This document shows positions 38,717 to 64,000 of a stretch of 64,000 nt of DNA, one piece after another. A program made the translations under genes and the position numbers. Position 1 is the stretch's first letter, and each line of letters opens with the position of its first letter. A model generated the notes under the pieces. That model was not told the DNA's origin, made no database searches, and saw nothing but the letters and a program-made list of their open reading frames with translations. The DNA is from Candidatus Parcubacteria bacterium (GTDB lineage: Bacteria; Patescibacteriota; Minisyncoccia; Minisyncoccales; JAGLUP01): assembly GCA_023134715.1 (NCBI GenBank), contig JAGLUP010000002.1, positions 15,906-79,905 of the forward strand, read 5' to 3'.

Positions 38717-38723
38717 TATTGAT

Positions 38724-39689: not shown

Positions 39690-39710
39690 TAGATAGAAGT
39701 AAACGAAAAA

Positions 39711-39861: not shown

Positions 39862-39907
39862 CATAAGAATAAATAAGTTCTTTTAAAATTTAAAAGAGGT
39901 GATAAAA

Positions 39908-43518: not shown

Positions 43519-43668
43519 TATTGATAGTTCTTTAAGTAAAAAAAAGAAAGAGAAATGAAATCTTCAGGGCAGTAAATTGATAATTAATAATTAATTATTA
43601 GCTTAATGCTCTGAAGAAATTTGATAATGTCAGGTTTTCTGGTGATGGCAGATATATTGAGGTAAAAA

Positions 43669-44007: not shown

Positions 44008-44069
44008 TTTTTTCTTTCTTTTTTTCTTTTTTCGAGCTCATAAAACAATGTTTGTGGGTTGGAAAAAAG
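44008..44069 (+). repeat. Cassette 3' module, copy c
   Basis: Polypyrimidine tract plus CTTTTTTCGAGCTCA-taaaacaatgttt-GTGGGTTGGAAAAAAG. Confidence 0.8.
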
Positions 44070-44115
44070 AAAAATTAAATTGACTTTTTAGGATGAAAAT
44101 GTTAATTTGATAGTA

Positions 44116-45465: not shown

Positions 45466-45511
45466 GAAAACTAAAATTATTGCAGACATTGCAAATATTT
45501 TCAAAAAACGC

Positions 45512-45617
45512 TTGACATTTTTTCATTATGTGGTATAATTAAAACATAAATGGAGAGAGAAATTTGTCATTAAATAACAAACGACTCTTCCATTTTTGGA
45601 GAGTCGTTTGTTATTTC
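45512..45617 (+). promoter_or_regulatory. Promoter plus terminated leader/sRNA, copy 3 (divergent)
   Basis: TTGACA-16-TATAAT, then GGAGAGAGAAATTTG and the hairpin AACAAACGACTCTTCC-attttt-GGAGAGTCGTTTGTT. Confidence 0.5.
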
Positions 45618-45939: not shown

Positions 45940-46015
45940 AAATAAAAAAAACAGTTCTTTAAATAAAAAAACCCTCCTTCGTTAAAACTATGGAGGGCAA
46001 AGAAAGAAAGAGAAA
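45940..46015 (+). repeat. Cassette 5' module, copy C3
   Basis: AAATAAAAAAAACAGTTCTTTAAATAAAAAAACCCTCCTTCGTTAAAACTATGGAGGGCAAAGAAAGAAAGAGAAA. Confidence 0.8.
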
Positions 46016-46552: not shown

Positions 46553-46554
46553 AT

Positions 46555-46635
46555 TTTTTCTTTCTTTTTTTCTTTTTTCGAGCTCAGAAAAATGTACAAG
46601 ACCCGACCTCGTACATTTTGTGGGTTGGAAAAAAG
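46555..46635 (+). repeat. Cassette 3' module, copy d (loop carries an extra nested hairpin)
   Basis: CTTTTTTCGAGCTCA..AAAATGTACAAG-acccgacc-TCGTACATTTT..GTGGGTTGGAAAAAAG. Confidence 0.8.
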
Positions 46636-46642
46636 CAAACAA

Positions 46643-46719
46643 AAATAAAAAAAACAGTTCTTTAAATAAAAAAACCCTCCTTCGTTAAAACTATGGAGGG
46701 CAAAGAAAGAAAGAGAAAA
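46643..46719 (+). repeat. Cassette 5' module, copy C4
   Basis: Identical core to 45940-46015. Confidence 0.8.
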
Positions 46720-46806: not shown

Positions 46807-46977
46807 ATGGATAGAAAAAATATATTGATTGTTATGATATTCCTGATAGTGGGGAGTTTAACGACAATCATTGCGTCGCTAATAAGCACAGGCACAGTGA
46901 ATAAAGAACTATTGGAAATTATATTTAATGTAGACGCGCTCATTCTCGTCTATGTTGGAATATTAAGCATTCATTAG
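46807..46977 (+). CDS. 56-aa two-TM protein, cassette 4
   Basis: GAGGTGAAAAAC before ATG 46807. The track start at 46693 lies inside the conserved 5' module and was not used. Confidence 0.5.
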   Translation: MDRKNILIVMIFLIVGSLTTIIASLISTGTVNKELLEIIFNVDALILVYVGILSIH

Positions 46978-47034
46978 TTTCTCTTTCTTTTTTTCTTTTT
47001 TCGAGTCCATAAATATTTGTGGGTTGGAAAAAAG
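46978..47034 (+). repeat. Cassette 3' module, copy e
   Basis: TTTCTCTTTCTTTTTTT, then CTTTTTTCGAGTCCA-taaatattt-GTGGGTTGGAAAAAAG. Confidence 0.8.
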
Positions 47035-47102
47035 AGGTTAGAGATGCTCTCGTCCTGCATCTTTGCTCTCTCCTAGACGTAGGATGGGAGCTTCTCTGAC
47101 CT
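47035..47102 (+). other. Long imperfect hairpin whose loop displays GCTCTCTCC
   Basis: AGGTTAGAGATGCTC pairs with GAGCTTCTCTGACCT, and GTCCTGCATCT pairs with AGACGTAGGAT. The loop is TTGCTCTCTCC. Confidence 0.4.
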
Positions 47103-49089: not shown

Positions 49090-49223
49090 ATCTTTATCTT
49101 TCAGTATATCTAATCTTTAAAAAATTTCAACCCTTTACAAAAACTTAAAATCAAGTATGCTTAAATTAGTTCAATGAGAAGAGAATGCTCTTTAAGAACT
49201 GAAAATTAAAAGAGGTGATAAAA

Positions 49224-50495
49224 ATGATAGCTGAAGCTATAATGACTAAAAAATCTATAAATGAAAAACCTGCATGTCCGGACTGCGGAAGTAGGCAAAC
49301 AATAACTGACTATAAACATGGTGAAATAATTTGTAAGTGTGGTTTGGTTTTAAATGATACATTATTTAATTTCGGACCCGAGACAAGAGCATACGACCAG
49401 GAAAAAATGGATAAAGTAGCGAGAACTGGCAGTCCTTTAAAATTTGCCAAACAAAATTTAGGATTGACGACAGAAATAGATCATTATGATAGAGATATTT
49501 TGGGAAGATCAATTCCAACTGAAAGAAAAGCTCAACTCTATCGTCTAAGGAAATGGCAAAGAAGAGCAAGAATGGGAACATCTGTTGACAGAAATCTTTC
49601 TATAGCATTGCCAGAGCTTGATAGAATGTGCGGACATTTAAACATTCCCAATAATATCAAGGAAGAATGCGCTCAGCTTTATAGAAAATGCGTAAAAGAA
49701 AGAATAGTCAGAGGAAGATCAATAGAAAGCGTAGTCGCGGCAGTAATATATTTAATATCAAGACAGCGTAAGCTTCCAAAAATCCTTGATGAGTTGGAAA
49801 GTGTGTCTGGCGTCAAGAAAAAAGATATTGGAAGGAGTTATAGAATAATTTGCAGAAGAATGAAGATAAGAATGCCAGTGACTACGGCGGCAGATTATAT
49901 ATCGAGATTAGCAAGCAAAGCAGGGGTCTCGGGAGAAACACAAGCAAAGGCGATAGAAATACTTGAGAAAGCAAGAAAAGACGGAACGATAAGCGGAAGA
50001 GTGCCTATAAGCATGGCGGCGGCAGGAATATATTTAGCCGCAGAAATGACGGGAGACGAGAATGCCAAACAAATTAAAGGAATTTCAGGTGTTTCTGAGA
50101 TGGGAATAAAAAATAGATATAACGAACTAAAAAGATTTATTGACAGAGACAATGGAATAGAAGTATTGCTTGAAGAAGAGATAGAAACATTAGATGATAT
50201 GCTGGGGAAGGTAGAAAAGAAAAAGATTCTGCTAAAATTTGCCGATGAGTTAGAGTTGTCAGACGAAACAAAAAAAGAAGCAGTTGAGATTCTGGAAAAA
50301 GTTATGGAAAATGGCTTTAAGCTGGATCCAAGAAAAAATATCAATGGATACATAGAAGCGGCAATTTATCTTAGCGCCATGGACAATGAAAAAATTTCTC
50401 TATGGAAGATAGAAAAGGTTACCAAAACTTCAAGCACAATAATCTGGGATAGGAAAGAAAAAATAAAAAAAGCGTTAATAGGAATAGAGCAATAA
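49224..50495 (+). CDS. Archaeal-type transcription factor B (TFB/TFIIB)-like protein, paralogue 1
   Basis: Zn ribbon CPDCGS..CKCG, GPETRAYD, YRLRKWQRR, two cyclin-fold repeats (RGRSIESVVAAVIYL, IGRSYR, AIEILEKA, AAAGIYLAA, IKNRYNEL) and a ~100-aa C-terminal extension. SD AAAAGAGGTGATAAAA precedes ATG 49224. Confidence 0.85.
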   Translation: MIAEAIMTKKSINEKPACPDCGSRQTITDYKHGEIICKCGLVLNDTLFNFGPETRAYDQEKMDKVARTGSPLKFAKQNLGLTTEIDHYDRDILGRSIPTERKAQLYRLRKWQRRARMGTSVDRNLSIALPELDRMCGHLNIPNNIKEECAQLYRKCVKERIVRGRSIESVVAAVIYLISRQRKLPKILDELESVSGVKKKDIGRSYRIICRRMKIRMPVTTAADYISRLASKAGVSGETQAKAIEILEKARKDGTISGRVPISMAAAGIYLAAEMTGDENAKQIKGISGVSEMGIKNRYNELKRFIDRDNGIEVLLEEEIETLDDMLGKVEKKKILLKFADELELSDETKKEAVEILEKVMENGFKLDPRKNINGYIEAAIYLSAMDNEKISLWKIEKVTKTSSTIIWDRKEKIKKALIGIEQ

Positions 50496-50610: not shown

Positions 50611-50639
50611 ATGAATGAAAAATAAAAGAGGTGATAATA

Positions 50640-51896
50640 ATGAATAAATGTAAAGGTTGCGGAGGTTCAGAAAAAATCACAGACTATAAACATGGTGAAA
50701 TACTTTGCAAAAAGTGTGGTTTGGTTTTGAATGATGCGCTATTTGATACTGGACCCGAATGGAGAGCATTTGACAAAGAACAATCAGATAAACGAGCGAG
50801 AACAGGCGGCCCTTTAAAATTTGCCAAACTAAATTTAGGTTTAACAACAGAGATAGACAAATACGACAGAGACATTTTAGGAAAACCGGTTCCCACTATA
50901 AGAAAAGCAAAACTCTACAGATTGAGATACTGGCAAAGAAGGTCAAGAATGGGAACATCTGTTGACAGGAATCTTTCTATAGCATTGCCTGAATTAGATA
51001 GGATGTGCGCGTATCTCAACATTCCCAACAATATTAAGGAGGAATGCGCCCAGCTTTACAGAAAATGCGTAAACAAGAAAATAATCAAGGGAAGGTCAAT
51101 AGAAAGCGTAATTGCCGCAACAATATATCTGATTTCCCGAAATCATAAAATGCCAAAAACTCTTGAAGAGCTTGAAAATGTGGCAGGTGTAAAGAAGAGG
51201 GATATTGGAAAGAGTTATAGAACAATCTGCAGAAGATTGGGCATAAAAATGCCAGTGATTACAGCCGTGGATTATGTGCCAAGATTAGCAAGTGAAGCAG
51301 GAATTTCCGGGGAAACAACAGCCATAGCAATGAAAATGCTTGAAGACACAAGAGAATCTGGAGCGATAGCAGGCAAGGTGCCTATAAGCATGGCAGCTGC
51401 AGGCGTATATTTAGCCGCAAGAATAACAGGAGATAAAAAGTGTCAAAAGATTAAAAGTATTGCAGGTATTTCTGAATCTGCGATAAAAAGCAGATACGTC
51501 GAGCTTGAAAAAATTATTAATGGAGAAGTATTGCTTGAAGATATTGACACGGGGATTACAGAAAAAAGAAAACCTGAAGAAGAGCCGACATTAGATGATA
51601 TGTTATGGAAGATAGAAAAGAAAAAGATTCTGCTAAAATTTGCCGATGAGCTAAGATTATCAGACAAAACAAAAAAAGAAGCAGTTGAGATTCTGGGAAA
51701 AGTTATGGAAAATGACTTTAAGCTGGATCCAAGGGAAAATATCAATGGATATTTAGGAGCGGCAATTTATCTGGCAGACAAAAACAATGATAGAAAATGC
51801 AAGCAAAAGGGAATTGCGCTCATTGTCGGCGTATCAGTTCCGACAATTTCATACAAAGGAAAAATAATAGAGGGGAAACTCTCTTCTTTTTTTTGA
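50640..51896 (+). CDS. Archaeal-type transcription factor B (TFB/TFIIB)-like protein, paralogue 2
   Basis: CKGCGG..CKKCG, GPEWRAFD, YRLRYWQRR, KGRSIESVIAATIYL, IGKSYR. The C-terminal extension is nearly identical to that of paralogue 1. Confidence 0.85.
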   Translation: MNKCKGCGGSEKITDYKHGEILCKKCGLVLNDALFDTGPEWRAFDKEQSDKRARTGGPLKFAKLNLGLTTEIDKYDRDILGKPVPTIRKAKLYRLRYWQRRSRMGTSVDRNLSIALPELDRMCAYLNIPNNIKEECAQLYRKCVNKKIIKGRSIESVIAATIYLISRNHKMPKTLEELENVAGVKKRDIGKSYRTICRRLGIKMPVITAVDYVPRLASEAGISGETTAIAMKMLEDTRESGAIAGKVPISMAAAGVYLAARITGDKKCQKIKSIAGISESAIKSRYVELEKIINGEVLLEDIDTGITEKRKPEEEPTLDDMLWKIEKKKILLKFADELRLSDKTKKEAVEILGKVMENDFKLDPRENINGYLGAAIYLADKNNDRKCKQKGIALIVGVSVPTISYKGKIIEGKLSSFF

Positions 51897-53726: not shown

Positions 53727-54410
53727 ATGGCTAAACTCAAAGAAAAAGAAAAAGCGATAAAACTTAGAAAAAAAGGGCGTTCCTATTCTGAAATTTTAAA
53801 ACAAATTCCGGTAGCTAAATCTACCTTATCTTTATGGCTAAGAAGTGTTGGATTGGCTCAACCTCAAAAGCAAAGACTTACTGAAAAAAGAAAACGGGCA
53901 TTAGAAAGAGGAGTGAAAGTAATCCGAGAAAAAAGGATCCTGTTGGTAAAAAAAATTAAGGAAAACGCTAAACAAGAAGTCAATAAAATTACTAAAAGAG
54001 AGTTATGGCTTATTGGGATTGCTTTATATTGGGCAGAGGGCGCTAAACAAAAAGAAACTAATGTTTCAGAAGGGGTATCTTTCGGTAATTCTGACCCAAA
54101 AATGATAACACTTTTCCTCAATTGGATTTATACGACTTGCGATCTCAGCCCTAATAATCTTAGTATAAGATTATATATTCACAAAACAGCCAATGCTGAA
54201 AAAGCAATAAAATTTTGGTCATCTGCTACCAAGATACCAATTTATAAATTTAAAAAAACTGTTTTTAAAAAGCATAAACCGAGAACGAATCGACGAATTA
54301 ATAAAAATTATCAAGGTTTAGTAAAAATCACTATTAAGAAAAGCACAAATTTTAATAGAAAAATAACAGGCTGGATTGAAGGAATTTGTGAAAATTGCGA
54401 GATCGTCTAA
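53727..54410 (+). CDS. HTH-containing protein with possible LAGLIDADG-like endonuclease core (tentative)
   Basis: N-terminal HTH-like RKKGRSYSEILKQIPVAKSTLSLWLR; LWLIGIALYWAEGAK resembles a LAGLIDADG block. The last 15 nt overlap tRNA-Gln. Confidence 0.35.
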   Translation: MAKLKEKEKAIKLRKKGRSYSEILKQIPVAKSTLSLWLRSVGLAQPQKQRLTEKRKRALERGVKVIREKRILLVKKIKENAKQEVNKITKRELWLIGIALYWAEGAKQKETNVSEGVSFGNSDPKMITLFLNWIYTTCDLSPNNLSIRLYIHKTANAEKAIKFWSSATKIPIYKFKKTVFKKHKPRTNRRINKNYQGLVKITIKKSTNFNRKITGWIEGICENCEIV

Positions 54411-54466
54411 TGGTAGGACACCACCCTTTGAAGGTGGTTATCTAGGTTCGAGTCCTAGTCTCGCAG
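54396..54466 (+). tRNA. tRNA-Gln (anticodon UUG)
   Basis: Acceptor TGCGAGA/TCTCGCA (U1-A72), anticodon stem CCACC/GGTGG with loop CTTTGAA, T-arm CTAGG-TTCGAGT-CCTAG. Confidence 0.85.
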
Positions 54467-55957
54467 CATTAAAGGATAATTCAATTTTTTAGGCCTGTCC
54501 TCGCCCTTTTGCTTTTTTCCGGCCCGGGCTTGATTATTGAATTTTAAGAGTATTTTCCATGCTTTGAGGGGAGTGAACAATATCTCCCGCTCTCGCAAAA
54601 GAGGGTTCGAGCCAATCTTTTTTAGGAAATTTTTCTTTTCTGAAAAATTTCCTCGCAAAGCAATAATTTGGGCTTGTTTTGCCTCTAAAATGAATTTTTT
54701 GGCGGGTTTGAGCCAATGATTATCCTTTTGCTCAAAATTAGTTAATTTCTGTTCATTCTCAATTTTCTGATTGAGAATTTTTTCTTTTTTAGCGAGGTAT
54801 TCATCTTTAGAAATTATACCTTCAAGATGAGCGTCTAAAAGTTTGTCTAATCTATTCTGACAATTCTCAATTTCATTTTTTAAATTTTGAGCAAAAGAGA
54901 ATTTGGCTTGGGCATTTTCTTTTTCATCTGTATCAAGATTTTCAATCATTTCATCCGCCCAAGCCGAATTTAAAGAAACTTTTTGAATGATGTTTGAAAT
55001 CTGCTCGGCCAAAAGTTCCTCGCGGATATATTTTTGAGAACAGGGGACACGCTTTTTTGTGCATCGGTAGTAGTTATGTCCTTTCTGCGTCTCAGAAGTA
55101 ATAGAACAGCCGCATTCAGCGCATTTTAGCAATCCGCGAAAAGCGTATTCCTTTTGGCCTCGTTTGGTCTTGCGGGCTTTGGTTTTCATCACTTCTTGGC
55201 ATTTGTCAAAAAGTTTCTTTGAAATCATTGGCTTATGGCTTCCTTGATAAAGCTCGTTATTGAAGATAAACGCGCCATAATAAAATGGCCTAGATAAAAT
55301 AGCTTGAATATTACTGACGCTTAATATTTTGTTGTTTCGGCTCAACAAGCCCAAATCAGTTATTTTATTTCTTAAATCTTTCAGAGAATAATTTTCTGTT
55401 GAATAAAGTTCAAAAAGTTTTTTGACGAGGTGAAATCTTTTAGGGTCTTTAACTATTTTATGATTGACCTTATCGTTTATGTAACCAGTAGGGGCAACGC
55501 CGGGTAATTCGCCTCGTCTTACTTTTTGACGCAAACCTCTTTTTACATTCTCTGAAAGATTGTCAATATAGTATTTTGATTGCCCAAAAGCAATGTTCAG
55601 CATAAACTTGCCCTGCGGAGTAGGATTAAACCAGAAAGTAGGGAATTTTAGCTTTTTAATTTTTTCAGTATCAACCAAATAGATTATTCGTCCGCCGTCT
55701 ATTGAATTTCTCGCTAATCTGTCAGGGTGCCAAGCTAAAATTCCCGACGCTTTATTTTGTTCAATAAGCGAGAGCATTTCATTAAAAACAGGCCTGCCAG
55801 GATCTTTGGCTGTTTTGCATTCAATGAATGTCTGGATAATATCTAAACGCTCTCGCTTTGCAAATTCTTTCAGTTCCGTTATTTGGGCTTCAATGGAAAG
55901 AATTTGCCTGTCAGGTTCATCTGTTGATTTTCTCGCGTAGAGAAAGAATTTGTTCAT
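54455..55957 (-). CDS. Large serine recombinase/integrase
   Basis: N-terminal resolvase domain YARKSTDEPDRQILSIEAQ, recombinase domain, Zn ribbon CAECGC..YYRC and a coiled coil. The last codons run into the tRNA-Gln 3' end. Confidence 0.9.
   Translation of the reverse strand: MNKFFLYARKSTDEPDRQILSIEAQITELKEFAKRERLDIIQTFIECKTAKDPGRPVFNEMLSLIEQNKASGILAWHPDRLARNSIDGGRIIYLVDTEKIKKLKFPTFWFNPTPQGKFMLNIAFGQSKYYIDNLSENVKRGLRQKVRRGELPGVAPTGYINDKVNHKIVKDPKRFHLVKKLFELYSTENYSLKDLRNKITDLGLLSRNNKILSVSNIQAILSRPFYYGAFIFNNELYQGSHKPMISKKLFDKCQEVMKTKARKTKRGQKEYAFRGLLKCAECGCSITSETQKGHNYYRCTKKRVPCSQKYIREELLAEQISNIIQKVSLNSAWADEMIENLDTDEKENAQAKFSFAQNLKNEIENCQNRLDKLLDAHLEGIISKDEYLAKKEKILNQKIENEQKLTNFEQKDNHWLKPAKKFILEAKQAQIIALRGNFSEKKNFLKKIGSNPLLREREILFTPLKAWKILLKFNNQARAGKKQKGEDRPKKLNYPLMLRD
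54464..54623. repeat. Inverted repeat arm (P' arm); reverse complement of 56011-56178
   Basis: ~160 bp, one 9-nt indel and a few mismatches. It encodes the recombinase C-terminus on the minus strand. Confidence 0.85.
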
Positions 55958-56010
55958 AATTGCTTTTGGGCGAATTAATTTATTGCTTTGCGTTTCTGCC
56001 CAAAGGGCAG

Positions 56011-56416
56011 AAAAAAGATTGGCTCAAACCCTCTTTTGCGAGAGTGGGGGATATTGTTCACCTTTTCTTTCCCCTCAAAGCATGGAAAATACTCTTAAAA
56101 TTCAATAATCAAGCCCGGGCCGGAAAAAAGCAAAAGGGCGAGGACAGGCCTAAAAAATTGAATTATCCTTTAATGCTGGGATTTTTGAATGAAATCCGAA
56201 CTTTTTTTCGCGAAAATCCGGACGCGGATTTTTGAATCCCGACCCAACGTTTCCGCCCGCCTCCGCTTCGCTCCGGCGGGAAACAAAACAGAAAAATTTT
56301 CCACATTTCATTTTCTCGCCAGCAATTTTTTAATTTTTAATTTAATGAAAAGAAAATTTTTTCTGTTTTGTGTTTCTACCCCAAACCCTGCTTCGCAGGG
56401 CAGGCGGGCAAAAATT
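56011..56416. repeat. Internal inverted copy of the complete attP-like region (rc of P' arm, GCTG core, X arm)
   Basis: 56011-56178 is the reverse complement of 54464-54623. 56175-56416 is the reverse complement of 63718-63960, with only scattered mismatches. Confidence 0.85.
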
Positions 56417-56485
56417 CCTTCCTCCAAATATCTTTTCTTTTTGCCCGCCCGCTTTTTTGATATGGGGAAAAAATAAGTCCTATAT

Positions 56486-56538
56486 GCTAACTATAGTATG
56501 TAGCAATAAAAATATCAAGTGGGTATACTATAGTTAGC
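56486..56538 (+). promoter_or_regulatory. C-box-like operator upstream of the controller gene
   Basis: Perfect inverted repeat GCTAACTATAGTAT (56486-56499) / ATACTATAGTTAGC (56525-56538), ending 2 nt before the ATG. Confidence 0.5.
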
Positions 56539-56540
56539 TT

Positions 56541-56759
56541 ATGAAAAAGAAGATTTTACTAAAATTCGGCGAAAAAGTTAGAGATGAAAGAATAAGACAA
56601 AATCTTTCACAGGAGAAGCTTGCTGAAAAAGCAGGTGTTCATCGTACTTATATTGGCATGATTGAAAGAGCTGAAAAAAATATAACATTAGAAAATATAG
56701 AAAAAGTCGCAAAGGCTCTTGGTTTAAAATTGTCAGATTTTTTTAGTGACTTTCAATAA
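56541..56759 (+). CDS. XRE-family HTH controller (C) protein of the R-M system
   Basis: 72 aa, LSQEKLAEKAGVHRTYIGMIERAEKNITLENIEKVAKAL. It sits immediately upstream of the endonuclease gene. Confidence 0.8.
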   Translation: MKKKILLKFGEKVRDERIRQNLSQEKLAEKAGVHRTYIGMIERAEKNITLENIEKVAKALGLKLSDFFSDFQ

Positions 56760-56763
56760 AATT

Positions 56764-57594
56764 ATGCCAAACCAGTTCAATAAATTTTTAATAGAATTCT
56801 CCAAAAGCTTTAAAGAAAAGGATCCTGTAATCCATAGCGTTATGGCTAATATTTTTTCTATGAGAATTATCGGGAATAAAACACATGGCGACCTTGCTGA
56901 AATTGCCTTAACAGAATATATCAACGAATTCGTTGGTGATTATTCAGCAAAGCATACAGGAAAAGAAACATTTCGAGCAAAGGTGAATGAAGAAGATATA
57001 AGAGTGACAAATAAAAACACAAACGAGGAAATGCCGATAAGCATAAAGACTTATGGATTTGGTCCTCTACAATTGTCTACAAATAAGGACACTTCTATGT
57101 TTAGATATTTAACAGAGATTGTTGGAAAAAAACAAGTCATTGATTCCAATAAAATTCGCAAGATACTTAGCAATCCATGCTTTATTGATTTTAATGATGT
57201 CAATGTTCTGCCTTTAATTTACAATGAAACAGAAATGACTTTCAAGGTGATCATATTTGATGTCAAAAAAGCGTATAAATCGGTTAGAAAAATAAAATTT
57301 TTCCCACCTAGAAAATTTGGGGAGAATAGGGAAACACATCCTATTTATAAATTCTTTGATAAAGATGACAACTATATTTTTGAAGTAAGATATGGTGATA
57401 CGAAAGCTAATGCGTTGCAACGGGGAATGTGGACTCACACTGAAAATGCCAGACCATTTTTCAAAAAGATTCTGAAAGGTTCATATCAAATTAACGAACC
57501 TTTACTTAAATTAATTTCAAAGACACTTGTTTGTCGGAAGAATAAACATGAAAAGATTCTAGAAAAATTTTTTCCTGCACATGGTATAGAATAG
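56764..57594 (+). CDS. Putative type II restriction endonuclease
   Basis: The call rests on position between the C protein and the methyltransferase, plus a PD-(D/E)xK-like EEDIRV..PISIKTYG. Specificity is unknown. The start is set to ATG 56764. Confidence 0.55.
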   Translation: MPNQFNKFLIEFSKSFKEKDPVIHSVMANIFSMRIIGNKTHGDLAEIALTEYINEFVGDYSAKHTGKETFRAKVNEEDIRVTNKNTNEEMPISIKTYGFGPLQLSTNKDTSMFRYLTEIVGKKQVIDSNKIRKILSNPCFIDFNDVNVLPLIYNETEMTFKVIIFDVKKAYKSVRKIKFFPPRKFGENRETHPIYKFFDKDDNYIFEVRYGDTKANALQRGMWTHTENARPFFKKILKGSYQINEPLLKLISKTLVCRKNKHEKILEKFFPAHGIE

Positions 57595-57647
57595 ATGTAA
57601 AATATTTGTTATAATACCATTAGATTACTAATCTAGTGGTATTTTTT

Positions 57648-58838
57648 ATGGAAACACAGGGAATAAAATATACTGGCTCTAAAAGGAAAATACTTCCTAT
57701 TCTATTAGAATTGGTGCGGCCGTTAAATATCCGAACTGTCTTAGATGGTTTTTCCGGGACTACAAGGGTGGCACAAGCATTTAAGAAAAGTGGGCATACC
57801 GTTTATACTAATGATGTAGCTGTGTGGTCTAAAATATTTGGAGAGTGTTATTTGCTAAATAAAAAACCAGCGAGTTATTATCAACCAATAGTAGACCATT
57901 TGAATAAAATTCCCGGGAAGTATGGTTGGTTTTCAGAATCTTATGGCGGAAGGCCAAATAGTGGTAGTGCCGTTGAAAAAGATGGCAAAAAGAGAATGTG
58001 GCAGTTACATAACACTAAAAAATTGGATGCAATCAGAGACGAAATAGACAATATCGCAAAAAATAAAATAGAGCGTTCAGTTTTATTAACCAGTCTTATT
58101 CTAGCGATGGATAAAGTGGATAGTTCAGTTGGTCATCAGGTTTCGTATCTAAGGAGGTGGGCTCCAAGGGCTTACAATACAATGAAGATGGAAGTTCCTC
58201 GTTTGATTATAGATAATAACAAGCATAAAGTTTATCAAAAAGATATTTTTGATTTAGTGGGGGATATTGAAGTTGATTTGGCTTATTATGATCCTCCTTA
58301 TGGCTCCTCTAATGAGCTTATGCCTCCTTCAAGAGTGCGTTATGCTTCTTATTATCATATTTGGCAAAGTATATGTCTAAATGATAAGCCAAAGTTAGTA
58401 GGCGTAGCCAATAGGCGTGAGGATGTAGGAGACACAGTGTCGGGTTCCATTTTTGAGGAATACAAGAAAAATTTAGACGGACAATATATTGTTATAGAGG
58501 CAATAAAAAAGTTAATAGAAAATACTAATGCGAAGTATATTGTTTTATCATATAACAATAATGGACGGGCTACTTTTGGAGCTATCTTAGATGTTCTGAA
58601 AAAACTAAGAATGAAATGCTCAATATTGGAAATGGATTATAAAAAAAATGTAATGGCGACTATGGCTTGGACTAATGAGTGGCTCAATAATACAAATGGC
58701 AAGGATAGTAGAAACAAGGAATATTTGTTTTTGATTCAGAAAGCAAAAACAAATATAATAAATTCTAATTTTGAAATAAAAAAAATTAATACATTAGAAT
58801 TAGCGGCTGTTCATCAACGAGAGTTGGGTTTTAAGTAA
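57648..58838 (+). CDS. DNA methyltransferase, Dam-like N6-adenine class (DPPY)
   Basis: KYTGSKRKILPILLE, VLDGFSGTTRVA (motif I) and AYYDPPYG (motif IV). The start is set to ATG 57648. Confidence 0.8.
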   Translation: METQGIKYTGSKRKILPILLELVRPLNIRTVLDGFSGTTRVAQAFKKSGHTVYTNDVAVWSKIFGECYLLNKKPASYYQPIVDHLNKIPGKYGWFSESYGGRPNSGSAVEKDGKKRMWQLHNTKKLDAIRDEIDNIAKNKIERSVLLTSLILAMDKVDSSVGHQVSYLRRWAPRAYNTMKMEVPRLIIDNNKHKVYQKDIFDLVGDIEVDLAYYDPPYGSSNELMPPSRVRYASYYHIWQSICLNDKPKLVGVANRREDVGDTVSGSIFEEYKKNLDGQYIVIEAIKKLIENTNAKYIVLSYNNNGRATFGAILDVLKKLRMKCSILEMDYKKNVMATMAWTNEWLNNTNGKDSRNKEYLFLIQKAKTNIINSNFEIKKINTLELAAVHQRELGFK

Positions 58839-59029
58839 GGAATTTATTTAATAAATTTTTTATATAAAATAGAATGAAAAGTTTTTAGGACTTGAGAACA
58901 TAACATAGGAAAAGGAATAGATGAGATTATGAGAAAGATAAGATGATTATGAAAATAAAAAAATTAACAATTAGCAATTTTCGGGCATAAAAAATCTTTT
59001 GGATTTTCGGGCATAAAATCGTATAAAAA

Positions 59030-60592
59030 ATGACACAAGATGATTTTGTTTTTAATGAATACAAGCCACTAAGAAATCATCTAAGCAAATTGTCGCTTGA
59101 TGATTCTTTTTTCGTCATCTGGTCATATATTCAACATTTACAATTCAATAATCTAATATCTAAAGAAATAGAAGTGATTTTAGAGTTTTTGAATAACGAT
59201 TACATGCAGAAAATAAGAATGTGTTCTGAGTGGGAATTAGAAACTCTAGCAAGAGAAATAATCATTAATGGACGAGAAAGCTCTTTCAACGATCAAACTC
59301 TTAAAAAATATGGCTATTTTGCTGGCGCTGTTAATAAACTAAAAAATTTAGAAAATAATATTGGTGGCGCCTATATAAACAAAGACAATATTCTTGTTGA
59401 ATTATTTCGAATATCACATCGTCAATTTCCTTGGCAAACAAGACCAAATAGTGAATTTTTAACTCGCTATTACAAAATTTTTAATACCCCAAAATTAGAT
59501 GAAATTTTACAAAAATCCCTTGGATTAACAGCAAAAAATTTGTATCTCGTAGGAATGATATTTATAGGTGCCTATTTAAAACATCCTGCTGTTAATTTAC
59601 CAATTAAGATAGAGGTTAGGGGAATAAATCAGGAAAATATTGAAAAGTTTTTGAAAGTATTCTCTATCTCAATCAGTGAACTAAAAGAAAAGATAAAAAA
59701 TGAACAAGAATTTAATAATAAATTTGTTTATTCTTTTTCGTCGTTAAGAGCTTTCCCGATTATTAAAATGATTTATTTCGGTCAAGAACGTTTAGTTTGT
59801 CCATTGCCAACTTTGTTATTTTGGCGTATAGCCAGTGGTGTCTATTATGAAATTTGTAATGAAAAAAATTTTGATAACTATTTCGGCATATCTTTCCAAA
59901 ATTATGCTGGTGAAGTTATCGAGAAAGCTACGGCAACTAATGAAAAAATTAATTTTCAGGCAGAAGAACAATACTTTGTCGGAAAAGATAGAAAAGACAG
60001 TGTTGATTGGATTATTTACAATAATGACTCTGCTTTATTCGTAGAATGCAAAACCAAAAGATTAAGATTGCCGGCAAAGCTTAAGCTTAATGATGGCTCT
60101 TATGTTAATGAGGAATTAGAAAAAATGGCAAGTTTTGTTTTGCAAATCTACAAAACAATAAAAGATTATAAGGACAACAAATATCCTTCATTCAAATTTG
60201 ATAAAAATAAAAAGGTATTTCCTTTAGTATTAACCCTTGAGCAATGGTATTTATTTGGTAATCGATTTTTTAATGAATTAGACAAAATATTGATTGAAAA
60301 ACTAAAACAAGAAAAGATTGACCCTTTATATTTAGAACAAATGCCTTATTCAATTTGTTCAGTTGATGAGTTTGAAAATATGATCCAAATAATACAAAAA
60401 ACGGGGATTTCAGATTTTATGCAGAAAAAGGTTTTCGACGATGATAAAAAGAAATGGGCATTTCAACCTTTTATGAGTAGCATATTTGCAGAATATTATA
60501 AAAATACTAAATTCTTATTTAAGGAAGACTATCAAAATATTTTTAATTCCATTTTAAAAAATAATTCTGAACCCACCCACCACCCTTATTAA
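59030..60592 (+). CDS. Hypothetical 520-aa protein with PD-(D/E)xK-like motif
   Basis: SVDWIIYNNDSALFVECKTKR fits D..ExK of the restriction-endonuclease fold. Nothing else was recognised. Confidence 0.5.
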   Translation: MTQDDFVFNEYKPLRNHLSKLSLDDSFFVIWSYIQHLQFNNLISKEIEVILEFLNNDYMQKIRMCSEWELETLAREIIINGRESSFNDQTLKKYGYFAGAVNKLKNLENNIGGAYINKDNILVELFRISHRQFPWQTRPNSEFLTRYYKIFNTPKLDEILQKSLGLTAKNLYLVGMIFIGAYLKHPAVNLPIKIEVRGINQENIEKFLKVFSISISELKEKIKNEQEFNNKFVYSFSSLRAFPIIKMIYFGQERLVCPLPTLLFWRIASGVYYEICNEKNFDNYFGISFQNYAGEVIEKATATNEKINFQAEEQYFVGKDRKDSVDWIIYNNDSALFVECKTKRLRLPAKLKLNDGSYVNEELEKMASFVLQIYKTIKDYKDNKYPSFKFDKNKKVFPLVLTLEQWYLFGNRFFNELDKILIEKLKQEKIDPLYLEQMPYSICSVDEFENMIQIIQKTGISDFMQKKVFDDDKKKWAFQPFMSSIFAEYYKNTKFLFKEDYQNIFNSILKNNSEPTHHPY

Positions 60593-60685
60593 TTTTAAAA
60601 TCCCGCTGAAAAAATCAGCTGGAAAATTATCAAAGTTTGGAAACATGATTTGAAAAATTATAAACTAAACAAATTGAAATAAATT

Positions 60686-61510
60686 ATGACTAAAAACGAG
60701 AAAGATTATTCAAAAGAAGGAAGCGCTCCGAAAATAATACGGGGTGCTTTACAAGTTGTTGGTGGTACGGTTCCTTTTGCGGGCGGTTTATTTTCGGCGG
60801 CAGCGGGAGCGTGGTCGGAAAATGAACAAGAGCGAGTAAATAAGTTTTTTCGACACTGGATAAAAATGCTTGAGGACGAAATTCGCGAAAAAGAAAGAAC
60901 TATTCTTGAAATAATGGCTCGGCTTGATGTTCACGACGAGGAAATTGCGAAAAGATTAGAAAGTAAAGAATATCAATCACTTTTGAAAAAAACATTTCGA
61001 GAATGGTCTGGCGCAGAGAGCGAGGAAAAAAGAATGTATATCAGAAATATCCTTGCGAATGCCGCCGCCTCAAATATAACAAGTGATGATGTTGTGAGAT
61101 TGTTTATTGATTGGCTCAAAAATTATTCGGAAATGCATTTTCATGTTATCGCAGCCGTTTATAATTCAAACGGAATAAGCAGAGGTGCGATATGGAAAAA
61201 AATCGATAAAGAGCCGGTGCGTGAAGATTCGCCAGAGGCCGGACTTTATAGATTACTTATTCGTGATTTAAATATTGGCGGGATTATTCGTCAACATAGA
61301 GAAAAAGATGCTCACGGAAATTTTTACGGCAAAACTCCGCAAAGAAGAACTACATCGCGGCGCACTGGCCCAAAAAAAATGGAGTCGGCGTTTGATGAAG
61401 AAAATTTGTATGAACTTTCAGAACTTGGTCAGCAATTTGTCCACTATGCAATGACTGATTTACCACTTAAAATTGAATATAATCCTCAGGAAGAGGCAGG
61501 TCAGGAATAA
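60686..61510 (+). CDS. Hypothetical 274-aa protein
   Basis: Long ORF, visibly more GC-rich than its neighbours, with a Gly/Ala-rich N-terminal segment. No motif recognised. Confidence 0.5.
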   Translation: MTKNEKDYSKEGSAPKIIRGALQVVGGTVPFAGGLFSAAAGAWSENEQERVNKFFRHWIKMLEDEIREKERTILEIMARLDVHDEEIAKRLESKEYQSLLKKTFREWSGAESEEKRMYIRNILANAAASNITSDDVVRLFIDWLKNYSEMHFHVIAAVYNSNGISRGAIWKKIDKEPVREDSPEAGLYRLLIRDLNIGGIIRQHREKDAHGNFYGKTPQRRTTSRRTGPKKMESAFDEENLYELSELGQQFVHYAMTDLPLKIEYNPQEEAGQE

Positions 61511-61636
61511 GCCCACCGAAAAAAAATCAAGTGAAGCACGAAAGCGGGACTAGCGTTTCTGCTTTCCTGCGATAGCCCCAGTAGCAAAGCGAAGCTTGCT
61601 ATAGGGCGAGCAGGAAAGCGGAAACGCTTTCGCGGA

Positions 61637-61692
61637 CGGGCAAAAATTGGGACGGATTTTTGTCCGCCTGTTTTTTTGACGAGTCGAAAAAA
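61637..61692. repeat. W repeat (inverted partner at 63673-63728)
   Basis: GGGCAAAAATTGGGACGGATTTTTGTCCGCCTGTTTTTTTGACGAGTCGAAAAA. Confidence 0.8.
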
Positions 61693-61731
61693 AATTTGAA
61701 AATTATGATTTTTGTGTTATCATTATAAGCA

Positions 61732-62769
61732 ATGAATATCCAAAAAGGATTTATCCAAATTCCAATTTTAATTCTTATTGTTGTCGGAATAATAGTTATA
61801 GGCGGAGCTATCTATTTTGGTATAAATCAATATCAAAACTATCAAGCTCAAAATCTTGAAAAAGAAAAACAAGCTCAAGATTTAATTTTGGCACAACAAA
61901 AAGCAATAGAGAAAACTATTCAAGAAATTGAAGAATTAAGGACAGAAAGTCAAGAAAAAAAACAAGAAGAAGATTCAGAAATGGATAAGATGAAAGAGGA
62001 AATGGAAAGTTTGAAAGAACAACAAGCAGAAACCGCTAAAAAACAAGAAGAGATTCCTCAAAAAGAAGAAGAAACAAAGCAAGATGAATCTATAATTACC
62101 GCTTCCGAAATAAACCCTTATTTAACGGGGGTGGGAGAAATATATTGTGCTGGAAGTAGTCCAGCGAGAGGAAGTGTATCTCTCTGGCATTTTAGTAATG
62201 AATTGGGATATACCGTATTAACGAATAAACATGTTATTACTACAAATAATTGTGATTTAGTTGTTTCTGATACTGCTGAGGATACAGAACATAGCGGTGT
62301 TTATAATTTAGGGATAGAAATATATAATTGGAACAATAAAACAGATGTTGCTGTTTTAAAGATAGAATCTTTGGGGCTTGATATTTCTGTACCTATTTCA
62401 AGTTTAAATTATAAAATATCATCCTTGTCAAAATGTTCTTCAATAATGGCTATTGGTTCTCCTGTTATGGTGGTAGGATTTCCAGCTTTTGCAGAAGCTG
62501 AAAATGAGTATGGTTTGCAAACATTCTTGACAATGACAAATGGAATAATAAGCGCACAAGATATATCAGTAAAATGGGGAGAAGGGAAATTACCTTATTC
62601 CAATTATTTTGTTTCAGCGAAAATTGACAGCGGAAATTCTGGCGGCATTGCTTTTTCTAAGGATGAAAATGGATTATGTGTATTGGGCGTTCCAACATGG
62701 CTTAGTATAGGTCATTATGAAACACAAGGAATAATACAAAATATCCATAATGTAATGTACCAGCAATAA
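61732..62769 (+). CDS. Membrane-anchored trypsin-like serine protease with coiled-coil linker
   Basis: N-terminal TM helix and a Glu/Lys/Gln-rich coil. The catalytic triad context is TNKHV (His), TDVAVLKI (Asp) and DSGNSGG (Ser). Confidence 0.7.
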   Translation: MNIQKGFIQIPILILIVVGIIVIGGAIYFGINQYQNYQAQNLEKEKQAQDLILAQQKAIEKTIQEIEELRTESQEKKQEEDSEMDKMKEEMESLKEQQAETAKKQEEIPQKEEETKQDESIITASEINPYLTGVGEIYCAGSSPARGSVSLWHFSNELGYTVLTNKHVITTNNCDLVVSDTAEDTEHSGVYNLGIEIYNWNNKTDVAVLKIESLGLDISVPISSLNYKISSLSKCSSIMAIGSPVMVVGFPAFAEAENEYGLQTFLTMTNGIISAQDISVKWGEGKLPYSNYFVSAKIDSGNSGGIAFSKDENGLCVLGVPTWLSIGHYETQGIIQNIHNVMYQQ

Positions 62770-62934
62770 AAATTTATAAAAGAAAGAAAGAAATAAATTT
62801 CAGAAGCAATAATTGGATTTTTATTTTTGAAATTTTAATTACTTTCAAGTAGAAAAAGTAATAAAAGTAGGATTAGGATTAGGTCTATTGAAAAAGTTCG
62901 TCGTTGATTGATTTTTTTGATTTAAACCAAAGAT

Positions 62935-63672
62935 ATGGAAACAATTGATAAACAAAATTTAATGACAGGGGCAGGAAAAAACCTTGAGAATAAAATCATT
63001 AGATCATTTAAAAAACATAATCTTCAATGTATAAAACTGGACAAAGTGAAAAGTGGAAAAAGACCAGACTGCTATGTTTATACGAATAATGATAGTAAGC
63101 AAGGATTTATTTGTGAAATAAAATCTATTATTAGCGGAGGAAGCATAGAGAATGGCAAGTATTTACTTAGCACAAAAGATCCTGAATTTAGGAAATCCAT
63201 TCGCCTTAATCCTAAGCTTCGTGATCACGATAAAGTTGAAAATGTATTGAAAAGGAAATTAAAGGACGTATTAAATTATGCAATTCAACAATATAATAGT
63301 CTTATTGTAGATGAATCGAAATATAAGCAGCATCCTTTCGTCGTGGTAATTTGTGAAGATTTTTTTGCTGAGATTCTTCATTCGTGTAACTTCGGTGAGA
63401 TCTTTAAGAACGGAAAAGAAATTAGCGCTATAATAAAGCTCGTAAAAAATTATGAAAAAGAACAAATTAACAAAAGACACCTAAAAGAACTCAATGATTA
63501 TTATCATTATCATTGGAAAGATAGAAATTACGAAAAACCAGGAAAAAAGTGGAATGAAGATTATGGGGGAATTCCTGACACAGTACGATTTAAGATTTGG
63601 CTAAATGATAACGCAAGGATAAAATTTAAGGCCAATAAATTTTTCAGAAATCCAATCATAATTCATTCTTGA
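62935..63672 (+). CDS. Hypothetical 245-aa protein with PD-(D/E)xK-like motif
   Basis: KRPDCYVYTNNDSKQGFICEIKS fits PD..ExK. Confidence 0.5.
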   Translation: METIDKQNLMTGAGKNLENKIIRSFKKHNLQCIKLDKVKSGKRPDCYVYTNNDSKQGFICEIKSIISGGSIENGKYLLSTKDPEFRKSIRLNPKLRDHDKVENVLKRKLKDVLNYAIQQYNSLIVDESKYKQHPFVVVICEDFFAEILHSCNFGEIFKNGKEISAIIKLVKNYEKEQINKRHLKELNDYYHYHWKDRNYEKPGKKWNEDYGGIPDTVRFKIWLNDNARIKFKANKFFRNPIIIHS

Positions 63673-63728
63673 ATTTTTCGACTCGTCAAAAAAAACAGGC
63701 GGACAAAAATCCGTCCCAATTTTTGCCC
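63673..63728. repeat. W' repeat (reverse complement of 61637-61692)
   Basis: Begins immediately after the stop codon of 62935-63672 and runs into the X' arm. Confidence 0.8.
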
Positions 63729-63960
63729 GCCTGCCCTGCGAAGCAGGGTTTGGTGTAGGAATACAAAACAGAAAAAATTTTCTTTTCATTAAATTAAAAA
63801 TTAAAAAATTGCTGGCGAGAAAATAAAATAAGGAAAATTTTTCTGTTTTGTTTCCCGCCGTAGCGGAGCGGAGGCGGGCGGAAACGTTGGGTCGGGATTC
63901 AAAAATCCGCGTCCGGATTTTCGCGAAAAAAAGTTCGGATTTCATTCAAAAATCCCAGCC
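63718..63960. repeat. X' arm: right-end inverted repeat of the element (reverse complement of 56175-56416)
   Basis: ~240 bp aligned by eye with only scattered mismatches. It ends at CAGC 63957-63960. Confidence 0.85.
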
Positions 63961-64000
63961 ACATAGGATAACTTAAAAAAAATCGCAAAACAAATAATTT

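What the first reader, a model, noticed from the sequence alone, without database searches (positions are those of the whole stretch)
56175..63760. Repeat arms are built from GC-rich mini-hairpins, and three sites meet at a common 11-bp boundary GGGCAAAAATT
The X arm contains CCCGCC-tccgcttcgctc-GGCGGG and CCCTGC-ttc-GCAGGG. It also has a ~20-bp stem, AAACAAAACAGAAAAATTTT pairing with AAAATTTTTTCTGTTTTGT, around an AT-rich ~50-nt interior. Several loops are GCTTCGC/GCGAAGC, the sequence known to form an unusually stable DNA mini-hairpin. A further long imperfect hairpin (61560-61630, GCGTTTCTGCTTTCCTGC..GCAGGAAAGCGGAAACGC with a GCGAAGC apex) precedes the W repeat.

At GGGCAAAAATT the homologies switch:
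- 56406-56416: X-core-unique sequence.
- 61638-61648: unique-core-W.
- 63718-63728 (minus strand): X-core-W.

The W copies (61637-61692 and 63673-63728) are inverted and bracket exactly the protease gene and the 245-aa gene. The mosaic looks like the product of site-specific or hairpin-mediated exchange. It defines a second potentially invertible or exchangeable 2-kb module inside the island.
Basis: partly seen in the sequence, partly recalled or inferred. Interest (0 to 1): 0.55.

Follow-up and report, generated by a model that had tools for sequence, protein, structure and literature searches.

The report
Hairpin tail of a serine-recombinase island
The repeat arms are two inverted copies of the conserved, hairpin-rich non-coding tail of a serine-recombinase mobile island inserted at the end of a tRNA-Gln gene, and the shared 11-bp "boundary" is the stem of the tail's last hairpin, where a 5-kb block of defence genes was most likely spliced in.

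Summary
In detail: all hairpins, the three GGGCAAAAATT sites and the inverted W copies are at the stated coordinates.

**Context.** Window 54464-63959 is a large-serine-recombinase (LSR) element in the 3' end of tRNA-Gln. It has three att-type sites sharing GCTG/CAGC:
- attL (tRNA|core|L').
- An intact inverted attP-like site (L|core|R) just upstream of lsr.
- attR (R'|core|B').

This layout recurs in relatives from Patescibacteria and other phyla: 62 of 80 loci have repeats around lsr, and 23 show all three junctions.

**The hairpins.** They are conserved tail modules with compensatory changes (16 pairs against 8.9±1.7 in shuffles, 0/500).

**The boundary.** GGGCAAAAATT is the 5' stem of the terminal ~49-nt hairpin ("motif A"), which sits at the tail/cargo border. 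Site a is not "unique" after the core, and the sequence before site b is a miniature third tail.

**The mosaic.** Sites a and b are hybrid hairpins. This fits one reciprocal crossover within CGGGCAAAAATT that inserted a 5.2-kb defence segment into an ancestral X+W arm. W/W' would then be the inner ends of the old arms. Active inversion of the 2-kb module is untested.

I found no published description of this architecture.

The parts
54396..54467 (+). tRNA-Gln (UUG). Its last 4 nt (CAGC, 54464-54467) are the crossover core of attL.
   Evidence: ARAGORN and Rfam; junction alignment.
54455..55957 (-). Large serine recombinase gene (500 aa; Resolvase + Recombinase + Zn-ribbon; YARKS catalytic motif). 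Its last codons run across attL into the tRNA gene.
   Evidence: Pfam, NCBIfam, translation.
54468..54623 (.). L' arm: the 3' coding end of lsr. It is an inverted repeat of 56011-56174 (157/168, including an 8-nt indel).
56011..56174 (.). L arm of the internal inverted attP-like site, just upstream of the lsr start.
   Evidence: the same arrangement is found in 62/80 relatives.
56175..56178 (+). Crossover core GCTG of the internal attP-like site. It is shared with 54464-54467 and 63956-63959.
   Evidence: Three-way alignment; the same three-way junction is found in 23 relatives.
56179..56416 (+). Modules: P half-site AAATCCGAACTTTTTT (56192-56207), GC hairpin 56256-56280, long AT stem 56281-56371, GC hairpin 56386-56400.
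56400..56460 (+). Site a: a hybrid terminal hairpin. The 5' stem GCAGGCGGGCAAAAA comes from resident hairpin H1. The degenerate C-rich loop and 3' stem TTTTTGCCCGCCCGC come from H2. A T-run follows.
56417..61636 (+). Inferred inserted 5.2-kb defence segment. Genes: C protein 56541-56759, type II REase 56746-57594, N6A MTase 57636-58838, GapS1-like 59030-60592, 274-aa ORF 60686-61510.
   Evidence: Pfam, PADLOC and NCBIfam. The same C-R-M block lies next to motif A in L118.
61553..61627 (+). HP: a miniature third tail. It keeps the family's long-range helix GCGTTTCYGC...GCGGAAACGC with a shortened interior.
61632..61692 (+). Site b / W: a hybrid hairpin plus a 24-nt extension. The 5' stem GCGGACGGGCAAAAA comes from H2. 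The loop TGGGACGG and 3' stem come from H1. It is terminator-like, and a promoter-like site follows at 61696-61723.
61732..63672 (+). Ancestral cargo: Trypsin_2 protease (61732-62769) and a 245-aa protein (62935-63672) with a PD...ExK-like motif.
63673..63737 (-). Site c / W': the intact resident hairpin H1 plus its 24-nt extension. This is the inner end of the far arm.
63718..63955 (-). R' arm, far copy (X-right), 95% identical to the near copy. 7 of the 8 differences fall in unpaired positions.
63956..64000 (+). attR core CAGC (63956-63959) followed by chromosomal flank B'.

Best explanation
**What it is.** Window 54464-63959 is an integrative element driven by a large serine recombinase (LSR) and inserted at the last four bases of tRNA-Gln. 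It carries three att-type sites:
- attL (tRNA|CAGC|L').
- An intact, inverted attP-like site (L|GCTG|R) directly upstream of lsr.
- attR (R'|CAGC|B').

Inverted repeats therefore bracket both the recombinase gene and the cargo.

**The arms.** They are two copies of a ~270-300-nt non-coding tail that would lie downstream of lsr in the circular form. The tail is a fixed series of modules:
1. The recombinase half-site.
2. A GC hairpin.
3. A long AT-rich stem.
4. A second GC hairpin.
5. A terminal ~49-nt hairpin (motif A) that marks the tail/cargo border.

GGGCAAAAATT is the 5' half of that last stem.

**Why three copies (inferred).**
- The ancestral arms were X + hairpin H1 (the W type) + 24 nt on both sides of a 2-kb protease/nuclease-like cargo.
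- A 5.2-kb defence segment, with its own miniature tail (HP) and its own hairpin H2, then recombined with the near-arm H1. The crossover was reciprocal and lay inside the shared 12 bp CGGGCAAAAATT.
- This left hybrid hairpins at a and b, and the intact H1 at c.

**Shown and inferred.** Shown: the site architecture, the family-wide conservation and covariation, and the hybrid nature of a and b. Inferred: the direction of the event (insertion), the enzyme (probably short-homology recombination at a hairpin, not the LSR), and any present-day flipping. Also inferred is the likely working of the whole element:
- It integrates by attP x attB.
- The second attP, or the 85-330-bp identical arms through RecA, lets the lsr segment and the cargo segment invert.
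- Inversion switches lsr between an orientation convergent with the tRNA gene and one co-directional with it.
For: **Architecture in the window.** The LSR domains are present, the tRNA is called, and the three junctions share GCTG.

**Recurrence in relatives.**
- 62/80 relatives have repeats round lsr and 24 have the second pair. Arms have median identity 98.6-100%. The tRNA 3' end abuts the arm in 51 loci.
- 23 loci show all three junctions, with cores of 3-10 bp at the ends of Gln, Ser, Leu, Arg, Asn, Glu, Phe and Gly tRNAs.
- Both orientations of the lsr segment exist: 49 convergent, 2 co-directional (L058 complete).

**The tail.**
- 17 distinct copies were found.
- 47 pairs are predicted, 96.7% of cells are paired, and 16 pairs have double changes against 8.9±1.7 in shuffles (0/500). 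Slid controls give 5 or fewer.
- Motif A has covarying stems and a conserved C-rich loop.
- It lies 25-46 nt from the inner end of the arms.
- Homology between loci is confined to the motif itself.

**The hybrid hairpins.**
- An A.C break occurs only at site a.
- Hairpin energies favour the inferred parents over the observed hybrids.
- A natural H2-type hairpin is present in L102, L152 and L163.
- HP is a miniature tail.
- The W extension of 24 nt matches the usual arm overhang.
- The C-R-M block is found beside motif A in another metagenome.
Against: - No empty attB, circular junction or pre-insertion arm (X-W-protease on the near side) was recovered.
- W has no match outside this genome.
- The 12-bp crossover region is short for RecA-type recombination.
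- The direction of the event rests on one covarying pair, a 6 kcal/mol difference and the 24-nt overhang.
- 66 of 80 metagenome stretches with motif A held no lsr. Most are short or could be far arms, so it is not proven that motif A belongs only to these elements.
- Canonical LSRs do not recombine attL or attR with attP, so recombinase-driven flipping is not established.
- An HTH gene usually sits next to the near arm. This suggests that cargo orientation is not freely randomised.
Confidence: 0.6

Rival explanations
1. W and W' are live recombination sites, so the 2-kb protease/245-aa module is a second invertible or exchangeable cassette. It would be moved by a site-specific or hairpin-directed (single-strand) mechanism acting at GGGCAAAAATT.
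For: - W copies are 55/56 identical, inverted, and enclose exactly two genes.
- In L083/L084 a 2-kb module with a 245-aa homologue is flanked by inverted motif A copies.
- Motif A is a discrete unit, far better conserved than its flanks, and occurs in either orientation.
- A conserved U.G pair and the G.T pairs of W make folding strand-specific.
Against: - No second recombinase lies in or next to the island.
- No alternative orientation was found.
- Only 2 of 121 loci have a third hairpin copy.
- The bracket is fully explained if W/W' are the inner ends of ancestral arms split by one insertion.
Confidence: 0.15
2. Nested-element and gene-conversion model. HP+W (site b) and W' (site c) are the cognate arms of an older inner element. 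A second tail (X + A-type hairpin) arrived with the restriction-modification block. Later arm-to-arm conversion starting near the crossover core overwrote the far arm with X as far as the hairpin.
For: - HP is a recognisable miniature tail in the same orientation as the near arm.
- Differences between arms cluster away from the core: 144 of 177 lie in the distal half.
- In the window the 86-117 nt next to the core are identical.
Against: - Site c's hairpin is perfectly paired (-15.0 kcal/mol), whereas b is the weakest (-9.0).
- The A-T / G-C partner rule assigns c's two halves to one hairpin.
- This model needs two events plus decay of the core-proximal part of b. The distal clustering of mismatches can be an edge effect of how the arms were delimited.
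Confidence: 0.15
3. The units are a dispersed REP/MITE-like repeat or generic intrinsic terminators, and the common boundary is coincidental.
For: - W at b and the hairpin at a are followed by T-runs and score as terminator-like.
- Motif A has at least 120 exact-19-mer hits in metagenome contigs.
- One copy in L067 lies outside an element's arms.
Against: - The only copies in the 64-kb window are the three in the island.
- In the 80 genome loci (each with up to 10 kb of flank per side, where the contig allowed) the copies sit in the recombinase arms.
- Most family copies lack a T-run.
- The loop sequence is conserved while the stems covary.
Confidence: 0.04
4. The inverted repeats are assembly artefacts of a metagenome-assembled genome.
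For: Many related contigs end inside the arms. L144 has 1,097-bp perfect terminal repeats that look artefactual.
Against: - The arms here are 95% identical, not 100%, with an 8-nt indel.
- An independent Logan contig matches 61648-63718 exactly.
- The same layout appears in assemblies from many groups and assemblers.
Confidence: 0.02

Closest known systems
Large-serine-recombinase integrative elements and prophages (phiC31, Bxb1, A118 integrases; CcrAB of SCCmec; XisF)
   Same: - A recombinase with Resolvase, Recombinase and Zn-ribbon domains.
- A short crossover core.
- attL and attR made of one element half-site and one host half-site.
- The attP lies beside or inside the end of the integrase gene.
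   Different: - The protein is under 30% identical to any phage integrase in the collection. Its best NCBIfam hits (XisF, CcrB) score far below their cut-offs.
- The integrated element keeps a complete second attP-like site in inverted orientation, with 85-330-bp arms.
- The target is the extreme 3' end of tRNA genes.
- No directionality factor is evident in minimal 2.6-kb relatives.
Serine DNA-invertase switches (Hin/hix, Gin/gix, Cin, Min)
   Same: The recombinase gene lies inside (as with Hin) or beside a segment bracketed by inverted crossover sites. Both orientations are found among relatives.
   Different: - The enzyme is a large serine recombinase, not a small invertase with a C-terminal HTH.
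- The arms are 10 times longer than hix or gix.
- No enhancer is known.
- The element is also integrated and mobile.
- Inversion in this genome was not observed.
Yeast 2-micron plasmid (FLP/FRT within 599-bp inverted repeats)
   Same: The predicted circular form would be split by two long inverted repeats, each holding a crossover site, into a recombinase arc and a second arc.
   Different: FLP is a tyrosine recombinase. The 2-micron circle is a replicating plasmid. No replication function is seen here, and the circle was not observed.
Integron attC sites and gene cassettes
   Same: An imperfect hairpin at a cassette boundary, stems that covary, and an exchange that maps inside the hairpin.
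   Different: - No IntI-type tyrosine recombinase.
- No R''/L''-L'/R' boxes or GTTRRRY.
- No cassette arrays: one or two copies per element, and three in only 2 of 121 loci.
- The conserved part is the loop.
Intrinsic terminators and the d(GCGAAGC) mini-hairpin
   Same: GC-rich stems. T-runs follow hairpins a, b and c. Four GCGAAGC/GCTTCGC heptamers lie in hairpin loops.
   Different: Most family copies of motif A lack a T-run. The heptamer is not significantly enriched, sits on different strands in different hairpins, and is replaced by cTTCGg-type loops in relatives.

Membership tests
LSR integrative element | Recombinase with an N-terminal resolvase catalytic domain (Ser nucleophile) plus Recombinase and zinc-ribbon domains. 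| tested here: met
   PF00239 2e-21, PF07508 5e-16, PF13408 3e-10; YARKS motif.
LSR integrative element | attL and attR share a short core. Each joins one element half-site to one host half-site. | tested here: met
   tRNA|CAGC|L' and R'|CAGC|B' in the window; 23 relatives with the same logic at different tRNAs.
LSR integrative element | An unoccupied attB exists in relatives, and a circular junction exists. | not tested
The predicted attB is ...GGTTCGAGTCCTAGTCTCGCAGC|CACATAGGATAAC.
LSR integrative element | A single attP per element. | tested here: not met
   An intact inverted L|core|R site remains inside the integrated element here and in most relatives.
Serine invertase switch (Hin/Gin type) | A small (~190 aa) invertase with a C-terminal HTH and an enhancer-dependent reaction. 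| tested here: not met
   500-aa LSR architecture. An enhancer is not testable.
Serine invertase switch (Hin/Gin type) | Both orientations of the bracketed segment occur. | tested here: inconclusive
   Among relatives, 49 are convergent and 2 co-directional with the tRNA. Within this genome there are no data.
REP/MITE dispersed repeat | Many copies at unrelated genomic sites. | tested here: not met
   Three copies in 64 kb, all in the island. In the 80 genome loci the copies lie in element arms, apart from one in L067.
REP/MITE dispersed repeat | Terminal inverted repeats with a target-site duplication around a short non-coding unit. | tested here: not met
   W/W' enclose two intact genes. The 12-bp direct repeat flanks the 5.2-kb segment, not a miniature unit.
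Integron cassette / attC | An IntI tyrosine recombinase with attI and an array of attC-bounded cassettes. | tested here: not met
   No tyrosine recombinase among the island proteins. At most three hairpins per locus.
Intrinsic terminator | A GC-rich stem-loop immediately followed by a U-run, downstream of a gene. | tested here: met
   Site b (61637-61666 plus T-run) lies after the 274-aa gene, and c scores on the minus strand. Site a has CGCTTTTTT. This is not a general property of motif A.
Described structured RNA (Rfam) | A match at gathering score to an Rfam model. | tested here: not met
   Only the two tRNAs pass. Permissive scans of the arm and of L036 gave sub-threshold chance hits.

The most novel reading that the evidence does not exclude
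The terminal hairpin (motif A) and the rest of the covarying tail are not passive 3' UTR or terminator sequence. They would be the working parts of a cargo-exchange and switching system:
- A strand-specific folded nucleic acid (RNA or single-stranded DNA) at which defence modules are swapped between serine-recombinase elements.
- An internal second attP that lets a large serine recombinase invert its own gene and its cargo, reactions that canonical enzymes of this class do not perform.

That would make these elements a natural, integron-like cassette platform built on a serine recombinase and widespread in Patescibacteria.
Probability: 0.15. Interest if true: 0.85.

Novelty: new variant of a known kind. 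Interest (0 to 1): 0.55.

Why it matters
- **A recurring architecture.** The finding leads to a tRNA-targeting serine-recombinase element that keeps a full second attP in inverted orientation. The recombinase gene and the cargo are therefore each bracketed by near-identical repeats. It recurs in Patescibacteria, Omnitrophota, Elusimicrobia and other phyla. Five literature searches found no description of it.
- **A question for the enzyme class.** If the recombinase itself drives the inversions, that would extend what this widely engineered enzyme class is thought able to do.
- **A new conserved hairpin.** The elements carry defence genes: restriction-modification, a GapS1-like protein, and a protease with a nuclease-like partner. 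They also carry a ~49-nt hairpin, unmatched in Rfam, that is better conserved than the recombinase gene. It sits exactly where cargo begins, and in this island an exchange maps inside it.
- **Practical use.** The three-junction signature gives exact attP and attB predictions for dozens of new recombinases.

Tried and rejected
- **Rfam.** At gathering score only tRNAs matched. Permissive scans of the arm and of a canonical relative gave chance-level hits only.
- **Exact W 31-mer in metagenome contigs.** No match, so neither a pre-insertion state nor a flipped state could be sought that way.
- **Motif A in viral contigs.** No match.
- **Exact look-up of the LSR protein.** Not on record.
- **Contexts of the nine 245-aa homologues.** They showed linkage to a protease and to tail remnants, but no closer relative of this island.
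- **A conserved second gene in minimal relatives (cargo 0.75-1 kb).** The ~220-260-aa ORFs are unrelated to each other and to the 245-aa protein. The only shared 'ORFs' lie in the arms themselves.
- **A palindromic crossover dinucleotide that would abolish polarity.** The cores (GCTG, GCGG, GTGC, GGT...) share no such dinucleotide.
- **A tRNA-like or guide-like element in the tail.** By eye, in the two targets compared (Gln and Asn tRNAs), there is no match to the target tRNA acceptor.
- **GCGAAGC as a significant signal.** Not supported window-wide.
- **The gradient of arm identity as proof of recombinase activity at the core.** Rejected as proof, because the way the arms are delimited produces the same bias.
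- **Literature.** Five full-text searches found nothing on this architecture.

Full report
**1. The observation**

Reading 55800-64000 and the repeat search confirm the arms:
- X: 56158-56416 and 63718-63976, 259 nt, 95% complementary.
- W: 61637-61692 and 63673-63728, 55/56 identical.

The named hairpins are at 56256-56280, 56281-56371, 56386-56400 and 61553-61627.

GGGCAAAAATT occurs exactly three times in the window, all at the stated sites. Single-strand folding is much better than for shuffled sequence, with z from -4.2 to -5.5.

The heptamer GCGAAGC is not significantly enriched across the window. It occurs 9 times against 4.9 expected, and 7 of 100 shuffles reach 9.

**2. The surroundings change the picture**

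A tRNA-Gln gene ends at 54467. Overlapping its end on the other strand is a 500-aa large serine recombinase (LSR) gene, 54455-55957. It has Resolvase, Recombinase and Zn-ribbon domains and a YARKS catalytic motif.

A further inverted repeat, 54461-54623 and 56011-56181, brackets this gene and abuts the left X arm. Aligning the three places gives:

| Place | Reading | Role |
|---|---|---|
| Left | tRNA...CAGC + L' | attL |
| Centre | L + GCTG + R | intact inverted attP-type site |
| Right | R' + CAGC + B' | attR |

The cores are at 54464-54467, 56175-56178 and 63956-63959.

**3. The layout is a family trait**

A genome scan with the LSR returned 80 loci at 49-76% identity. Most are from Patescibacteria. 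Others are from Omnitrophota, Elusimicrobia, Planctomycetes and Verrucomicrobia MAGs.

- 62 of the 80 have the repeat round lsr, and 24 have the second, abutting pair.
- Most of the loci with only the first pair have contigs that break within about 500 nt of it, although a minority have kilobases of upstream sequence and still no abutting pair.
- Arms are 98.6-100% identical at the median.
- Cargo ranges from 0.75 to 8.5 kb.
- The tRNA 3' end abuts an arm in 51 loci.
- In 23 loci all three junctions can be written out. Cores are 3-10 bp at the very end of Gln, Ser, Leu, Arg, Asn, Glu, Phe or Gly tRNAs, and the B' flanks are unrelated.
- Where the L arms have diverged, the half-site next to the core is still kept.
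- lsr is convergent with the tRNA in 49 loci and co-directional in 2. L058 shows the complete flipped arrangement.

**4. The arms are a conserved, structured tail**

Next to the core lies an invariant motif, AAATCCGAACTTTTTT. It matches exactly in 18 of the genome loci, always beside the core.

Seventeen distinct copies of a ~270-nt tail were collected. On a 12-sequence alignment of them:
- RNAalifold predicts 47 pairs.
- 96.7% of cells are paired.
- 16 pairs show changes on both sides, against 8.9±1.7 in shuffles (0/500) and 5 or fewer when partners are slid.

The CCCGCC/GGCGGG hairpin also shows compensating changes by eye, GCTTGCC...GGCAAAC in relatives.

A conserved U.G pair, and the G.T pairs of W, make the fold strand-specific. 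That favours RNA or single-stranded DNA over a cruciform.

The two arms of this island differ at 8 of 235 positions. Seven of the eight are unpaired (P = 0.014).

**5. The 11-bp boundary**

GGGCAAAAATT is the 5' stem of the terminal hairpin, which I call motif A. Its consensus is GGGCGGGCAAAAA-TTCCTTCCCCCAGACCCCCTTCC-TTTTTGCCCGCCC.

- The C-rich, mirror-symmetric loop is conserved while the stems covary: GGGCAAAAA, CCGCCCGCA, GGGGCGGGAA, GCGGCGGAA, AATGGAAAA.
- It lies 25-46 nt from the inner end of the arms, in either orientation.
- An exact 19-mer finds none in viral contigs and at least 120 stretches in metagenome contigs. Many of these are inverted pairs 1.5-10 kb apart.
- Between loci, homology is confined to the ~50-60-nt motif in 2535 of 2946 comparisons.
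- No Rfam family matches.

Site a (56400-56452) is a degenerate motif A. W at b and c has the same stems with the loop replaced by TGGGACGG.

The hairpin before b (61553-61627) is the family's long-range helix GCGTTTCYGC...GCGGAAACGC, present in 12 of 17 tails, with a shortened interior. It is therefore a miniature third tail.

**6. How the mosaic arose**

One stem pair is diagnostic. It is A-U in 9 tails and G-C in 2. It is broken (A.C) only at site a.

| Site | 5' stem | 3' stem | DNA folding energy |
|---|---|---|---|
| c (observed) | A-type | T-type | -15.0 kcal/mol, perfectly paired |
| a (observed) | A-type | C-type | -12.8 kcal/mol |
| b (observed) | G-type | T-type | -9.0 kcal/mol |
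| H2 (inferred parent) | b's 5' stem | a's 3' stem | -12.9 kcal/mol |

- Hairpins of the H2 type exist intact in L102, L152 and L163.
- W and W' share 24 nt beyond the hairpin, the usual overhang of arms in this family.

The simplest account is as follows. The ancestral arms were X+H1+24 nt round the protease/245-aa cargo. A 5.2-kb segment carrying HP+H2 then crossed over reciprocally with the near-arm H1 within CGGGCAAAAATT.

The cargo is modular:
- The same C-R-M block lies beside a motif A in metagenome contig L118.
- The 245-aa gene travels with a trypsin-like protease and with tail remnants or inverted motif A pairs in L082-L084.
- Cargo annotations are a C protein, a type II REase and MTase, and a GapS1-like protein below its cut-off.

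**7. What remains open**

- I could not test inversion in this population, the empty site, or the circular form.
- W is unique to this genome in the collections searched.
- Only 2 of 121 loci have three hairpins, so capture at the hairpin is not routine.
- Most motif A stretches from metagenomes were too short to show whether an lsr is near.
- Mismatches between arms cluster away from the core, 144 of 177. This can be an edge effect.
- W at b also behaves as a terminator, followed by a promoter-like site.

**8. Comparison and novelty**

The element works like an LSR integrative element. It fails one defining feature, a single attP. It resembles a Hin-type switch and the 2-micron plasmid in layout only.

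The closest sequence relatives among named families (XisF, CcrB) score far below their cut-offs. Phage integrases are under 30% identical. PDB matches cover only the catalytic domain. Five literature searches found no description.

I class it as a new variant of a known kind. The invertible 2-kb module is unproven and not needed to explain the data.

Noticed in passing
window 54455-54467 and 55960-56235: The recombinase ORF ends inside the tRNA-Gln gene on the opposite strand. If the lsr segment were flipped at the core, the ORF would read into R and end about 18 codons later. The copied 3' end upstream of lsr carries an 8-nt insertion (CTTTTCTT) that breaks the frame.
   Followed up: partly
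window 56483-56535: Palindromic C-box-like sequences (CTAACTATAGTATGTAG ... GGTATACTATAGTTAGC) lie ahead of the control-protein gene. Homology with the C-R-M block of metagenome contig L118 begins exactly here.
   Followed up: partly
L163:1-10137: Two complete serine-recombinase elements, each with both repeat pairs, sit within 10 kb at different tRNA genes on one metagenome contig.
   Followed up: no
L144:1-1097 and 7193-8289: A 1,097-bp perfect inverted repeat lies at both contig ends. It includes a tail with motif A, but no lsr is detectable. This is either an assembly artefact or a much longer arm.
   Followed up: no
L043:5837-6831 and similar minimal relatives: In relatives with 0.75-1 kb of 'cargo', the segment between the arms is itself a diverged palindrome. 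The two halves give 49-58% identical translations in opposite orientation. The smallest elements may therefore be only lsr plus two extended tails.
   Followed up: partly
L012, L013, L011, L015, L022, L031, L091, L161 (inner edge of the near arm): An XRE/HTH gene reading away from the near arm is the first cargo gene in several elements, as the C-protein gene is here. This suggests a preferred cargo orientation or a regulatory link with lsr.
   Followed up: no
window 39343-39423, 39629-39708, 44008-44088, 46554-46654, 46977-47053: Five copies of a ~62-80-nt intergenic unit (T/C-rich run, CGAGCTCATAAAAC, GTGGGTTGGAAAAAAG). Two of them lie close to tRNA-Glu (39790-39862).
   Followed up: no
window 38605-38743, 43406-43545, 45506-45562; also 45940-46015 and 46643-46718: Repeated promoter-like (TTGACA...TATAAT) plus leader sequences, and two 76-nt identical hairpin-containing units, in a region of short genes.
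   Followed up: no
window 49215-50495 and 50631-51896; 3992-4091, 4945-5044, 5665-5764: Tandem paralogous genes (about 79-87% identical stretches), and three neighbouring genes sharing a conserved N-terminal signal-like segment.
   Followed up: no
window 59030-60592: The 520-aa cargo protein matches the antiphage GapS1 family at 96 bits, well below the curated cut-off of 320. It may be a distant member of that defence family.
   Followed up: partly
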